DNA of 63,785 nucleotides. Origin: a virus (taxonomy: Duplodnaviria; Caudoviricetes). Positions 24,178 through 42,811 of this stretch are shown piece after piece. The first letter of the stretch is position 1. Each line of letters opens with the position of its first letter. The stretch spans positions 1-63,785 of the IMG/VR virus record IMGVR_UViG_3300032157_000216; one strand, written 5' to 3'. Made by a program: the position numbers and the translations under genes. A model generated the notes under the pieces. It made no database searches, was not told where the DNA came from, and was given only the letters and a program-made list of their open reading frames with translations.

Positions 24178-24262
24178 TGGTGGACCCTGATAGATTTGAA
24201 CTACCGAAACCAGAAGGTGCCATCTTCACTGATGGTGGGTTTGCCCGCTCCCCTAAAGGCCC
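24178..24262 (-). ncRNA. tRNA-like RNA with an Ala-type acceptor and a 6-nt loop
   Basis: GGGCCTT/AGGGTCC (G3:U70), A73, CCA; CCATC-AGTGAA-GATGG. Confidence 0.65.
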
Positions 24263-24357: not shown

Positions 24358-24520
24358 ATAAACATAATATTTCTTAAAAACTAATTCATAATTCTTAAAA
24401 AATATGCATACACGTCGTATGCCTGTCTCTTGATAGTTGATACTATCTCCAGAACCCCCTGCTCATTGCTGCGCTTTATTATAGTGTATTGCTGTTATAC
24501 AGGTATACTTACACTCTTTT

Positions 24521-25075
24521 CTATTCGTTTACGGAATAGAAAATATTTAAGGAAGTCGTAACATCAATCTTAAACCATTCGCCAACTCTTTTAAGAGTAG
24601 ACAGATTCATTTTATCTATGATAAAAGATTCCATCTTTCTACGATCAGTTACCCATCGAAGTCCTACAATAGCATATCGTTTTTCAGGATCATATTGATT
24701 ATAGACGCTAAGTCTCTTTTCATAATCAAAAGCCATTCCAACTTTGACCCAACCTGGAAATGATTCATTCTCAATCAAATAAACAAAACCTTCTTTAATC
24801 AAAGTCTGTTCACCGTGAACTCGAATTTCGTCTTTATATTTTTGACGATTATCCAGGAGTTTTCTATATAATATTTCTTCGTTAGTAACCATTGGTTTAG
24901 TTACTGGTCTTACTTTCTCCTTAAAATTTACAATTCTCTTCTTAGATTCGATTATCTTAATCTTATCTTTCTTTTTCTTCTTAAGTTGCCCAGTTTCGAT
25001 CAAAAATCTATTATGGATCTTTGTTTTATAGTAAAGATCAGCATAATTACCAATGCTCGAAATTTTCTTACTCAT
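24521..25075 (-). CDS. T5orf172-type (GIY-YIG superfamily) protein
   Basis: GFVYLIEN..FPGWVKVG.A....KRL..YN and GEWF; start moved to MSKK, downstream of the terminator. Confidence 0.75.
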   Translation of the reverse strand: MSKKISSIGNYADLYYKTKIHNRFLIETGQLKKKKKDKIKIIESKKRIVNFKEKVRPVTKPMVTNEEILYRKLLDNRQKYKDEIRVHGEQTLIKEGFVYLIENESFPGWVKVGMAFDYEKRLSVYNQYDPEKRYAIVGLRWVTDRRKMESFIIDKMNLSTLKRVGEWFKIDVTTSLNIFYSVNE

Positions 25076-25088
25076 ATATTTAATATCA

Positions 25089-25120
25089 ACAAAAAAGCCG
25101 CTTAGTTTCCTATGCGGCTT
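25089..25120 (-). terminator. Attenuator terminator
   Basis: AAGCCGC...GCGGCTT followed by TTTTGTT; its 5' arm is shared with the antiterminator. Confidence 0.85.
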
Positions 25121-25151
25121 CCTTTTATAAGTGTTCTGGATACTTTTATCT

Positions 25152-25313
25152 TTAGTTTCCAGACTCCTTGTAGAAGGAAGCCATCGTAATTGGATCTTGT
25201 TCATTACTAGGTGTGAACCCAAACGACCAATAACCTTTGCCGGCGCAGAGGCGCTTGGAGGCTAAGGCCACCATATGCATCTCATTAGCAGTTTTCAGTT
25301 GTCGTTCAATCAT
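25152..25313 (-). CDS. Putative 53 aa attenuator leader peptide containing all 20 amino acids
   Basis: MIERQLKTANEMHMVALASKRLCAGKGYWSFGFTPSNEQDPITMASFYKESGN; its 3' codons form one arm of an antiterminator. Confidence 0.7.
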   Translation of the reverse strand: MIERQLKTANEMHMVALASKRLCAGKGYWSFGFTPSNEQDPITMASFYKESGN

Positions 25314-25430
25314 TTTAGTCTTTCAAAATCTCAAGTTAAGTTAAGGTTTGTAAACTTTCGTTTACATAAAGTTATTTATCATCTTAGGTAAAAACACCGT
25401 ATTATTTGTGTCTTTTCCCATCAAGCCGCA

Positions 25431-25459
25431 AGTTTAACAAGTTATAGTTAGTCTGTCAA
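25431..25459 (-). promoter_or_regulatory. Sigma70-type promoter (proximal) for the leader and tRNA cluster
   Basis: TTGACA-17 nt-TAAACT followed by GC-rich TGCGGC. Confidence 0.75.
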
Positions 25460-25523
25460 GTTACTCAAGTTATCTTCTTAGAGACAGACATATTGCTTGC
25501 GCTATATTTATTTATCATCTGTG

Positions 25524-25552
25524 ATTCTAACGTTGTTTTAGATAGGTGTCAA
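25524..25552 (-). promoter_or_regulatory. Sigma70-type promoter (distal) for the leader and tRNA cluster
   Basis: TTGACA-17 nt-TAGAAT. Confidence 0.75.
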
Positions 25553-42721: not shown

Positions 42722-42811
42722 TTTTTTAGATCGCCTTATTTGTGTATCGTAAATTATTTATCATCAATAAGATAAATAGTCGTATATTATTGATTAAGGA
42801 GTTTCCATCCA

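What the first reader, a model, noticed from the sequence alone, without database searches (positions are those of the whole stretch)
25089..25313. Pan-amino-acid leader-peptide attenuator at the head of the tRNA cluster
Seen: a 53-codon ORF (25313-25152), absent from the ORF track. Its first 10 residues are all different, all 20 amino acids appear by codon 40, and it uses 38 distinct sense codons including all four Gly codons. Codons 44-49 (GGCTTCCTTCTACAAG, 25182-25167) pair at 14 of 16 positions with CTTATAAAAGGAAGCC (25131-25116), extended by TCTGGA/TCCAGA. That second strand includes the 5' arm of the terminator AAGCCGC...GCGGCTT-TTTT, so the two hairpins are mutually exclusive. Known: this is trp/his attenuator logic, but those leaders are enriched for one amino acid. 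Inference: a ribosome reaching the stop favours termination, while stalling at any hungry codon allows read-through, so tRNAs are made on demand. Caveats: the Shine-Dalgarno is weak, and amino-acid completeness alone is only suggestive.
Basis: partly seen in the sequence, partly recalled or inferred. Interest (0 to 1): 0.9.

Follow-up and report, generated by a model that had tools for sequence, protein, structure and literature searches.

The report
All-amino-acid leader gating phage tRNAs
A large uncultured phage places a tiny gene that spells out all 20 amino acids, wired to a switchable transcription stop, in front of its tRNA genes, so it probably makes more tRNAs whenever ribosomes slow down for lack of any one of them.

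Summary

- **Conserved ORF.** The 53-codon ORF belongs to a family of about 50-codon ORFs. A search anchored on the upstream promoter, blind to the ORF, found it intact in 30 of 30 loci long enough to judge.
- **Always before tRNAs.** A same-strand tRNA array follows in 20 of 20 loci scanned.
- **Complete alphabet.** All 20 amino acids lie upstream of the hairpin's 5' arm in 87 of 95 distinct peptides (median 41 aa). Composition alone predicts about 0.2%.
- **More than inheritance.** Two tree-based nulls give 0 of 2000 and 1 of 5000 replicates matching the first set, where 54 of 54 are complete. Single-copy residues such as Cys, Val, Ile and Asp move position but are kept.
- **Switch.** The hairpin and the terminator both covary and share AAGCC. 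Naked RNA folds as the antiterminator in 24 of 24 tails. Blocking the 5' arm, as a ribosome at the stop codon would, lets the terminator form.

No expression data exist. In this window a T5orf172 gene sits between the terminator and the tRNAs. The closest known system is the mycobacterial whiB7 uORF attenuator. I found no published case controlling tRNA genes.

The parts
25524..25552 (-). Promoter-like site P1 (TTGACA-17-TAGAAT)
   Evidence: 11 of 12 consensus matches. It aligns with TTGACA..TA[GT]AAT in 6 of the 7 related loci.
25508..25519 (-). Motif GATGATAAATAA, copy 1, right after the -10 of P1
   Evidence: Three exact copies in the window against 1.08 expected for matches with up to one mismatch. 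All are on the - strand. Conserved in relatives.
25431..25459 (-). Promoter-like site P2 (TTGACA-17-TAAACT with an upstream TG)
   Evidence: 10 of 12 matches plus TG. Its -35 region is part of the 25-nt anchor pattern that retrieved 45 loci.
25372..25383 (-). Motif GATGATAAATAA, copy 2, in the 5' untranslated region
   Evidence: Conserved as AGATGATAAATAAC in the relatives.
25152..25313 (-). Leader ORF: 53 sense codons plus TAA
   Evidence: 35 database homologues and 47 cluster representatives. Intact in 30 of 30 assessable promoter-anchored loci.
25185..25313 (-). Proposed sensing segment: codons 1-43, which hold all 20 amino acids
   Evidence: No conserved RNA structure. Codon identity is conserved.
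25158..25182 (-). Antiterminator 5' arm, inside codons 44-52 (MASFYKESG)
   Evidence: Pair counts and covariation. It is part of the minimum-energy fold in 24 of 24 tails.
25152..25154 (-). Stop codon TAA, in the apical loop of the antiterminator
   Evidence: The stop lies 30-33 nt after the start of the arm in 24 of 24 tails.
25116..25140 (-). Antiterminator 3' arm (TCCAGA ... CTTATAAAAGGAAGCC), in the untranslated region
   Evidence: 92.2% of cells paired, and 5 of 22 pairs have changes on both sides.
25091..25120 (-). Intrinsic terminator: AAGCCGC, UAG-GAAA-CUA, GCGGCTT, then a run of six T. Its first five bases (AAGCC) belong to the antiterminator 3' arm.
   Evidence: 96.3% paired, and 3 of 10 pairs have changes on both sides. 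The full stem forms only when the 5' arm is blocked.
24521..25075 (-). T5orf172-domain gene (homing-endonuclease-like) between the terminator and the tRNA array. It is specific to this window.
   Evidence: PF10544, E 2.4e-07, and phrog_5032. In the relatives a structured spacer RNA follows the terminator directly.
24178..24262 (-). First tRNA-like gene of the array
   Evidence: ARAGORN could not assign its anticodon. The gene order after it matches the order that follows tRNA-Tyr in the relatives: Ala, Asp, Thr, Pro, Pro, Ile.

Best explanation
This is a ribosome-mediated transcription attenuator that gates a phage tRNA array. Its leader ORF acts as a sensor of the general supply of charged tRNA.

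Proposed mechanism:
1. Two strong sigma-70-like promoters, and possibly two phage-type promoter motifs, drive transcription into a leader of about 50 codons.
2. The first 39-50 codons are unstructured and contain every one of the 20 amino acids. Most rare ones occur as a single, codon-conserved copy.
3. The last nine codons form the 5' arm of a long hairpin of about -27 kcal/mol. Its 3' arm sequesters the first five bases of an intrinsic terminator.
4. On naked RNA, or when a ribosome is stalled anywhere in the first part, the long hairpin forms. The terminator cannot form, and RNA polymerase reads on into the tRNA genes.
5. If the ribosome runs smoothly to the stop codon, which lies in the hairpin's apical loop, it covers the 5' arm. 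The terminator then folds and transcription ends.

The outcome would be negative feedback: the tRNA array is transcribed more when decoding of any amino acid is slow.

Shown here:
- the conserved ORF;
- the complete alphabet;
- both helices, with covariation;
- the shared bases and the fold energies;
- the fixed position in front of tRNA arrays.

Inferred:
- that the ORF is translated;
- that ribosome position decides the fold;
- that read-through supplies the tRNAs.
For: **The ORF is kept as an ORF**
- It is intact in 30 of 30 promoter-anchored loci that reach 431 nt or more past the anchor. Seven shorter stretches cannot be judged.
- Pre-arm lengths run from 117 to 150 nt in steps of three, with many separate indels, all in frame.

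**Complete alphabet upstream of the 5' arm**
- First set: 55 of 55 distinct peptides.
- After adding 41 new cluster representatives: 87 of 95.
- Composition expectation is 0.001-0.002.
- LG model with site rates on the maximum-likelihood tree: a mean of 18.5 of 54 leaves stay complete, and 0 of 2000 replicates reach 54.
- Conservative null with site-specific alphabets: mean 38.8, and 1 of 5000 replicates reaches 54.
- Residues are mostly single-copy: Cys in 53 of 54 sequences, Trp in 54, Tyr in 51, His in 48.
- Lost copies are replaced elsewhere: Cys at two other columns, Val alone at four different columns, and Ile and Asp each relocated several times.

**Antiterminator**
- 22 pairs, 92.2% paired, 5 pairs with double changes, 0 of 500 shuffles as high.

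**Terminator**
- 10 pairs, 96.3% paired, 3 pairs with double changes, 1 of 500 shuffles as high.

**Fold energies**
- The minimum-energy fold is the antiterminator in 24 of 24 distinct tails.
- Mean energies are -26.8 kcal/mol for the hairpin and -13.8 for the terminator.
- With the 5' arm and stop region blocked, the full terminator forms.
- A terminator that is masked by default yet conserved implies that something unmasks it.

**Context**
- Same-strand tRNA arrays follow in 20 of 20 loci.
- No promoter-like site scoring 10 of 12 or better lies between the terminator and the first tRNAs in the two loci scanned, L212 and L222.
- The window's array holds tRNAs for all 20 amino acids.

**Sensing segment**
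- It has no conserved RNA structure.
- Codon identity is nevertheless conserved: 29 of 37 codons, against 75 of 149 in the neighbouring gene of the same genome pair (per column).

**Experimental precedent**
- In the whiB7 uORF attenuator one codon is enough. Removing the single Trp codon removed Trp sensing (PMC10274678, passages read).
Against: - No direct evidence of translation, termination or read-through. No RNA run is listed for this sequence.
- The Shine-Dalgarno is weak at -2.7 kcal/mol.
- Eight of 95 family members lack one or two amino acids: C twice, V three times, L twice, G twice and P once. Completeness is strongly favoured but not absolute.
- In the broader set alone the rate is 33 of 41. 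That is close to the per-leaf rate of the most conservative null, 0.55-0.86.
- The peptide has conserved motifs (RLCAGYW, EQDPI) and conserved codons. A pure composition sensor does not need these, so there may be a second constraint.
- In this window a T5orf172 gene and a second terminator-like hairpin (24422-24406) lie between the switch and the tRNAs.
- Later parts of the arrays have promoter-like sites of their own, for example a 12 of 12 site in L222.
- The sole Ile codon is often only 5 nt from the hairpin, at the edge of what a stalled ribosome would leave free.
Confidence: 0.6

Rival explanations
1. This is an ordinary small phage protein gene. Its mRNA ends in a protective hairpin followed by a terminator, and the complete alphabet is a by-product of conserved functional residues.
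For: - The peptide has well conserved motifs.
- Gene callers predicted it in many metagenomes.
- AlphaFold2 predicts an N-terminal helix with pLDDT 72-78.
- The most conservative null gives each leaf a 0.55-0.86 chance of staying complete.
- Eight of 95 members are incomplete.
Against: - No Pfam or PHROG family matches.
- The model has low confidence overall: mean pLDDT 62.5, pTM 0.31.
- This reading does not explain why single-copy Cys, Val, Ile and Asp move but are kept.
- It does not explain why the joint retention exceeds both nulls.
- It does not explain why a conserved, covarying terminator is masked by a stronger hairpin in 24 of 24 tails.
- It does not explain why two or three strong promoters feed a 50-codon gene that always faces a tRNA array.
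- The frameshifted members P0025 and P0031 keep the hairpin DNA but change the C-terminal peptide.
Confidence: 0.15
2. This is a translation-dependent switch as described above, but it reports only whether ribosomes are loading and moving at all. Examples would be an early-to-late switch or a response to host shut-off. It would not report the supply of each amino acid, and the alphabet would be secondary.
For: - The same structural evidence applies.
- With no 1:2 hairpin, any failure to translate gives read-through.
- Two kinds of promoter motif feed the leader.
Against: A simple on/off sensor does not need all 20 amino acids in 39-50 codons. It also does not need their retention through relocation or conserved codon identity.
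Confidence: 0.15
3. The long two-part hairpin is an RNA processing or stability signal, for example an RNase III-type site. It would separate the small mRNA from the tRNA precursor, and its overlap with the terminator would be incidental.
For: - The hairpin has a 16-pair lower stem, an internal loop and a 6-pair upper stem.
- From recall, this resembles phage RNase III sites.
- It covaries.
- tRNA precursors need processing.
Against: - The five shared bases are invariant or compensated in 24 of 24 tails, and the terminator is always the weaker competing fold.
- This reading does not explain the alphabet or the fixed position of the stop codon in the apical loop.
Confidence: 0.1

Closest known systems
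whiB7 5' leader uORF attenuator of mycobacteria (PMC10274678; abstract and passages read)
   Same: - Efficient translation of a uORF lets a rho-independent terminator form.
- Stalling anywhere in the uORF gives an antiterminator and read-through.
- The uORF is long and diverse. [quoted passage not shown]
- Its composition decides which starvations are sensed, and a single codon suffices.
   Different: - whiB7 is a cellular gene and controls a transcription factor, not tRNA genes.
- Its uORF is enriched in Ala, varies in which amino acids it holds, and is not kept complete.
- No sequence relationship was tested or is expected.
- Here the alphabet is compressed into about 41 codons and maintained by relocation of residues.
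Leader-peptide attenuators of amino-acid operons (trpL, hisL, leuL, pheL, thrL, ilv leaders; recalled textbook knowledge)
   Same: - A short leader ORF is followed by mutually exclusive antiterminator and terminator hairpins.
- The position of the ribosome selects the fold.
- A ribosome reaching the stop codon favours termination.
   Different: - Those leaders carry runs of one to three cognate amino acids. Here there is no enrichment, but one of everything.
- Those leaders have a 1:2 pause or anti-antiterminator hairpin, so no translation gives termination. None is conserved here.
- Their targets are biosynthetic enzymes. Here the targets are tRNA genes of a phage.
Codon-matched leader-peptide attenuators in front of phage tRNA blocks, noted earlier in this scan (AI notes e1-2978539, e1-5836933 and others; unpublished and mostly unchecked)
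   Same: - A promoter, a tiny ORF spelled in the amino acids of the tRNA block behind it, and a switchable terminator.
- Here the array covers all 20 amino acids, and so does the leader.
   Different: - Those leaders list a subset of amino acids for a subset block and come from other, unrelated genomes.
- I did not examine their loci.
- This family is the complete-alphabet extreme, and here it has family-wide statistics behind it.

Membership tests
Ribosome-mediated (leader-peptide) transcription attenuators | A short ORF in the transcribed leader, upstream of the regulated genes and conserved as an ORF | tested here: met
   Intact in 30 of 30 assessable promoter-anchored loci. All length variants are in frame.
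Ribosome-mediated (leader-peptide) transcription attenuators | The ORF is actually translated | not testable with these tools
   No RNA or ribosome-profiling data. Frame conservation is only indirect support. The Shine-Dalgarno is weak.
Ribosome-mediated (leader-peptide) transcription attenuators | An intrinsic terminator between the leader ORF and the regulated genes | tested here: met
   A GC stem with a GAAA loop and a run of six T. 96.3% paired, and 3 of 10 pairs have compensatory changes.
Ribosome-mediated (leader-peptide) transcription attenuators | An antiterminator that is mutually exclusive with the terminator, with its 5' strand within reach of a ribosome at the end of the ORF | tested here: met
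   Shared AAGCC. The antiterminator is the minimum-energy fold in 24 of 24 tails, and the terminator forms when the 5' arm is blocked. The stop codon lies in the apical loop.
Ribosome-mediated (leader-peptide) transcription attenuators | Read-through responds to ribosome stalling | not testable with these tools
   This needs reporter, Term-seq or in vitro coupled assays.
trp/his/leu-type amino-acid operon attenuators (narrow sense) | Regulatory codons: a run or enrichment of the cognate amino acid | tested here: not met
   No enrichment. Most rare residues are single-copy and all 20 are present.
trp/his/leu-type amino-acid operon attenuators (narrow sense) | An upstream 1:2 hairpin, so that an untranslated leader terminates | tested here: not met
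   RNAalifold on 26 pre-arm sequences gives -0.27 kcal/mol and two pairs. The naked RNA folds as the antiterminator.
trp/his/leu-type amino-acid operon attenuators (narrow sense) | The regulated genes are amino-acid biosynthesis genes | tested here: not met
   tRNA genes lie downstream in 20 of 20 loci. In the window a T5orf172 gene comes first, then the tRNAs.
uORF attenuators that sense general translation stress (whiB7 type) | A diverse uORF. Efficient translation gives the terminator, and stalling or no translation gives the antiterminator. | tested here: inconclusive
   The architecture and fold logic agree. Function was not tested. Homology to whiB7 leaders was not tested and is not claimed.
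Any Rfam family (T-box, tmRNA, known leaders) | A match to a curated covariance model | tested here: not met
   No match in the leader region at the gathering threshold. None at E up to 1 in 10 loci.

The most novel reading that the evidence does not exclude
A phage-encoded closed-loop tRNA homeostat. A minimal test message containing one codon for every amino acid monitors the whole pool of charged tRNA. It switches on a complete viral tRNA array whenever any one species runs short. Causes could include host tRNA decay during infection or cleavage by host anticodon nucleases, which would make it an inducible counter-defence. Together with the subset-matched leaders noted elsewhere in this scan, it would define a widespread and undescribed class of regulation of viral tRNA genes.
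Probability: 0.45. Interest if true: 0.9.

Novelty: new variant of a known kind. Interest (0 to 1): 0.85.

Why it matters
Why phages carry large tRNA arrays, and how they control them, is an old open question. Recent work links phage tRNAs to escape from tRNA-cleaving host defences (PMC10264068, abstract read; other titles seen only in the listing).

A leader that tests every amino acid and gates the array would show that these tRNAs are made on demand, through feedback from the ribosome itself. That makes the question directly testable with a reporter of about 450 nt.

It would also extend leader-peptide attenuation from amino-acid synthesis to the supply of tRNAs. And it would be a natural example of a minimal complete-alphabet sensor, which could serve as a general reporter of translation stress.

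Tried and rejected
- **Known RNA families.** Rfam found nothing in the leader or in the spacer.
- **tmRNA idea.** The stretch ANEMHMVALAS recalls tmRNA tag peptides (recalled, not from a call). I rejected this: ARAGORN finds no tmRNA, Rfam gives no tmRNA hit there, and the frame continues for 35 more codons.
- **RNA structure inside the ORF.** I looked for it as an explanation of the conserved synonymous sites. RNAalifold finds none.
- **Named phage genomes.** blastn of 2.2 kb gave no match.
- **A 15-nt core pattern.** The pattern used was too unspecific. It returned 116 stretches, almost all unrelated, and I did not use them.
- **A chance hit.** L089 is unrelated and was dropped.
- **More distant relatives.** A family HMM searched against small ORFs of 79 loci, found through the neighbouring 227-aa gene (L007-L085), gave no member. 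The leader is therefore confined to a narrower clade, or it is not next to that gene in those phages.
- **Expression.** No RNA holder is listed, so I laid no reads.
- **Peptide structure.** The AlphaFold2 model has low confidence, so I made no fold search.
- **Spacer RNA in the window.** blastn of window 24600-23500 against the relatives' spacer RNA gave no hit.
- **Codon matching to the window's tRNAs.** By my own reading against the tRNA set, nearly all leader codons are readable by the array. This does not discriminate, because the array is nearly complete.
- **Earlier notes.** There are none on this genome, either by place or by sequence.
- **Literature.** Searches for a complete-alphabet leader or an attenuator of tRNA genes found nothing relevant. 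Supplementary files were not consulted.

Full report
**What is in the window**

The window is a 63.8-kb viral contig that CheckV rates as 19% complete, so it comes from a very large phage. On the minus strand, ARAGORN finds 29 tRNA genes between 24262 and 6638. Rfam adds a few more.

Upstream of them lie, in order:
- two sigma-70-like promoter sites, at 25552-25524 (11 of 12 matches) and 25459-25431 (10 of 12 plus TG);
- the 53-codon ORF at 25313-25152;
- a long hairpin whose 5' arm is formed by codons 44-52;
- a GC-rich hairpin followed by a run of six T.

The two hairpins share AAGCC (25120-25116).

**The ORF belongs to a family and is kept as an ORF**

- A protein search found 35 homologues of 45-74 aa, none of them named.
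- A profile search of 1.84 billion cluster representatives found 47.
- To avoid selecting for intact frames, I anchored a DNA search on the promoter region instead of the ORF.
- That search gave 45 loci and 37 unique stretches.
- All 30 stretches that reach 431 nt or more past the anchor carry the ORF, starting about 165 nt after the start of the anchor.
- The other seven stretches are cut at 312 nt or less and cannot be judged.
- The part of the ORF before the hairpin ranges from 117 to 150 nt, always in steps of three, with many separate indels.
- Two database members, P0025 and P0031, are frameshifted near the end. They keep the hairpin DNA but read it in another frame. The constraint on the last nine codons is therefore on the RNA.

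**The complete alphabet is a family property**

- All 36 database proteins of the first search hold all 20 amino acids.
- A sharper result: all 20 lie upstream of the hairpin's 5' arm in 55 of 55 distinct peptides from the first two searches. Most of these are 39-47 residues long.
- Adding the 41 new, more divergent representatives and trimming N-terminal extensions gives 87 of 95 (median length 41).
- The eight exceptions lack one or two residues: C twice, V three times, L twice, G twice and P once.

Expectation from composition alone:
- 0.001 for 39 residues and 0.0022 for 43 residues, using the window's proteome composition.
- Even a uniform composition gives only 0.03 and 0.06.
- 43 of 15198 sliding 43-residue windows of the phage's own proteins are complete.
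- 30 of 2358 random small ORFs in related loci are complete.

Because the sequences are related, I ran two tree-based nulls. Both are rooted on the window's peptide.
- Under LG with site rates estimated from the same data, a mean of 18.5 of 54 leaves stay complete. The maximum is 42, and 0 of 2000 replicates reach 54.
- Under a deliberately conservative model, each column evolves within its own observed alphabet and invariant columns stay fixed. The mean is 38.8, and 1 of 5000 replicates reaches 54.

The reason for the excess is visible in the alignment.
- Cys, Trp, Tyr, His, Arg, Asp and Ile are single-copy in most members.
- When the usual copy is lost, another appears elsewhere.
- Cys moves to two other columns. 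Val is the sole copy at four different columns in four lineages. Ile and Asp each relocate several times.
- By eye, further Cys relocations appear in the sequences.

Against my reading: in the broader set taken alone, 33 of 41 are complete. That is near the per-leaf rate of the conservative null.

**The two hairpins are real and compete**

I counted pairs on 24 distinct tails (alignment A3).
- The long hairpin has 22 pairs and 92.2% of cells paired.
- Five of its pairs have changes on both sides, for example UAU/AUA, UAC/GUA, UGU/ACA, and UCUGGA/UCCAGA becoming UCUAGA/UCUAGA.
- 0 of 500 shuffles score as high, and slid controls reach 56.1% paired or less.
- The terminator has 10 pairs, 96.3% paired, and three pairs with double changes. 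1 of 500 shuffles scores as high.
- Two sequences with a shifted register count as broken in these figures.

In all 24 tails the minimum-energy fold is the long hairpin (mean -26.8 kcal/mol), which leaves only a stub of the terminator. When I block the 5' arm, the stop codon and 11 nt beyond it, as a terminating ribosome would, the full terminator forms (-13 to -18 kcal/mol). The stop codon sits 30-33 nt after the start of the arm, in the apical loop, in 24 of 24.

A terminator that is masked by default and yet conserved with covariation makes sense only if something unmasks it. A ribosome finishing the ORF is the obvious candidate.

**The sensing part looks like message, not structure**

- RNAalifold on 26 pre-arm sequences finds no conserved structure (-0.27 kcal/mol).
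- Codon identity is nevertheless conserved (counts are over the sequences that hold the consensus residue at that column): CAT 23 of 23, TAT 27 of 27, CAA 27 of 27, GAA 26 of 26, ATT 22 of 22, TGC 23 of 23.
- A few third positions (Ala18, Pro63, Leu8) use all the alternatives.
- In one genome pair, 29 of 37 identical degenerate residues keep the same codon in the leader. In the neighbouring 227-aa gene the figure is 75 of 149.
- The leader favours codons that are rare in the phage's own genes: TGC 93% against 21%, CGC 77% against 6%, GGG 40% against 3%, GTG 42% against 8%.

This fits selection on which tRNA reads each position. Other nucleotide-level constraints are not excluded.

**Context**

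- In 20 of 20 relatives scanned, a same-strand tRNA array follows (also three of four loci, the fourth being cut).
- The array usually starts with tRNA-Tyr. In ten loci it begins 215-293 nt after the terminator.
- That spacer is itself a structured RNA. 27 of its 49 predicted pairs have compensatory changes, and it has no Rfam match.
- In the two loci I scanned (L212, L222), strong promoter-like sites cluster upstream of the leader. Up to and including the first tRNA genes, no site scoring 10 of 12 or better follows the terminator. A 12 of 12 site occurs deeper in the L222 array.
- The window's array encodes tRNAs for all 20 amino acids. Seventeen types come from default ARAGORN. Asp, Thr and Val come from relaxed ARAGORN and are backed by Rfam hits.
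- The window differs from its relatives in one respect. A T5orf172-domain gene (25075-24521; PF10544, E 2.4e-07) sits directly after the terminator. It is followed by a terminator-like hairpin at 24422-24406 and then by the first tRNA-like gene at 24262-24178. This looks like the insertion of a homing-endonuclease-like gene.

**Mechanism and its status**

My best explanation, at 0.6, is a ribosome-mediated attenuator.
- A ribosome stalled at any of the 20 kinds of codon in the first 39-50 codons, or the absence of a ribosome, leaves the 5' arm free. The long hairpin then forms and transcription continues.
- A ribosome that reaches the stop covers the arm, and the terminator forms.

Shown here:
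- the ORF;
- the alphabet;
- both helices;
- the shared bases and energies;
- the position before tRNA arrays.

Inferred:
- translation of the ORF;
- coupling of ribosome position to the fold;
- dependence of the tRNAs on read-through.

The last amino-acid type to appear lies 2-7 codons before the arm. From recalled knowledge of the spacing of frameshift-stimulating structures, a structure 5 nt or more past the A-site codon can stay folded. The geometry is therefore tight but feasible.

**Rivals**

- An ordinary small protein with a protective hairpin (0.15). This leaves the relocations, the masked terminator and the promoter cluster unexplained.
- A plain translation on/off switch (0.15). This does not need a complete alphabet.
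- A processing site (0.10). This does not explain the overlap with the terminator or the placement of the stop codon.
- The AlphaFold2 model is of low confidence (pLDDT 62.5, pTM 0.31). This fits a leader peptide but does not prove it.

**Comparison with what is known**

- The logic is that of leader-peptide attenuation. However, it fails three narrow trp/his-type criteria: there are no cognate-codon runs, there is no 1:2 hairpin, and the targets are not biosynthetic genes.
- The closest published system is the whiB7 uORF attenuator (PMC10274678, abstract and passages read).
  - Efficient uORF translation gives termination, and stalling gives read-through.
  - Removing its single Trp codon removes Trp sensing.
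  - This gives experimental precedent for sensing by a single codon.
- What is new here:
  - the target, a viral tRNA array;
  - the compact complete alphabet;
  - evidence that completeness itself is maintained.
- Six literature searches found no description of such a leader or of attenuation of tRNA genes. Supplementary files were not consulted.
- Earlier AI notes of this scan describe leaders matched to subsets of tRNAs in other phages. I did not check those loci. They are leads, not support, but this family fits the same rule at its extreme.

**Verdict**

- It is a new variant of a known kind of regulator.
- Interest is high.

Noticed in passing
window 24521-25075 (-): A T5orf172 / MUG113-like gene (PF10544, E 2.4e-07; phrog_5032) sits directly after the leader's terminator. 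In the relatives a structured spacer RNA follows the terminator instead. This looks like the insertion of a homing-endonuclease-like gene into the leader-to-tRNA junction.
   Followed up: partly
L212:3600-3822 (-), and the equivalent stretch in L215, L220, L235, L222, L239, L207, L211, L092, L221: The 215-293 nt between the terminator and the first tRNA (Tyr) form a conserved structured RNA. 27 of its 49 predicted pairs have compensatory changes, and it has no Rfam match. Its function is unknown. blastn did not detect it in the window.
   Followed up: partly
window 25508-25519, 25372-25383, 42754-42765 (-), and upstream of several genes: The motif GATGATAAATAA occurs three times exactly, always on the gene strand. 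GATAAATA-like words lie 5-10 nt before the ATG of at least 8 of 43 long ORFs that lack a Shine-Dalgarno. This may be a phage-specific promoter resembling the T4 late promoter TATAAATA (recalled), giving very short leaders.
   Followed up: no
window 25185-25313 (-) and homologues: The leader strongly prefers codons that are rare in the phage's own genes: TGC 93% against 21%, CGC 77% against 6%, GGG 40% against 3%, GTG 42% against 8%, GTC 36% against 8%.
   Followed up: partly
window 24178-24262 (-): The first tRNA-like gene of the array is 85 nt long, and ARAGORN cannot assign its anticodon. It occupies the place held by tRNA-Tyr(GTA) in the relatives. It may be an unusual or decayed tRNA-Tyr.
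   Followed up: no
window 24406-24422 (-): A terminator-like hairpin, GCATACGACGTGTATGC followed by a T-rich tail, lies after the T5orf172 gene and before the tRNAs.
   Followed up: no
L219:283-435 (+) and L229: The leader carries an in-frame tandem triplication of a 12-nt unit, giving CAGY CAGY CAGYW. It lengthens the ORF to 60 codons without breaking the frame or the alphabet.
   Followed up: no
P0025, P0031 (database proteins): Two family members are frameshifted just before the hairpin arm. They end in RLPSTRSLETK, which is the same hairpin DNA read in another frame. All 20 amino acids are still present upstream.
   Followed up: partly
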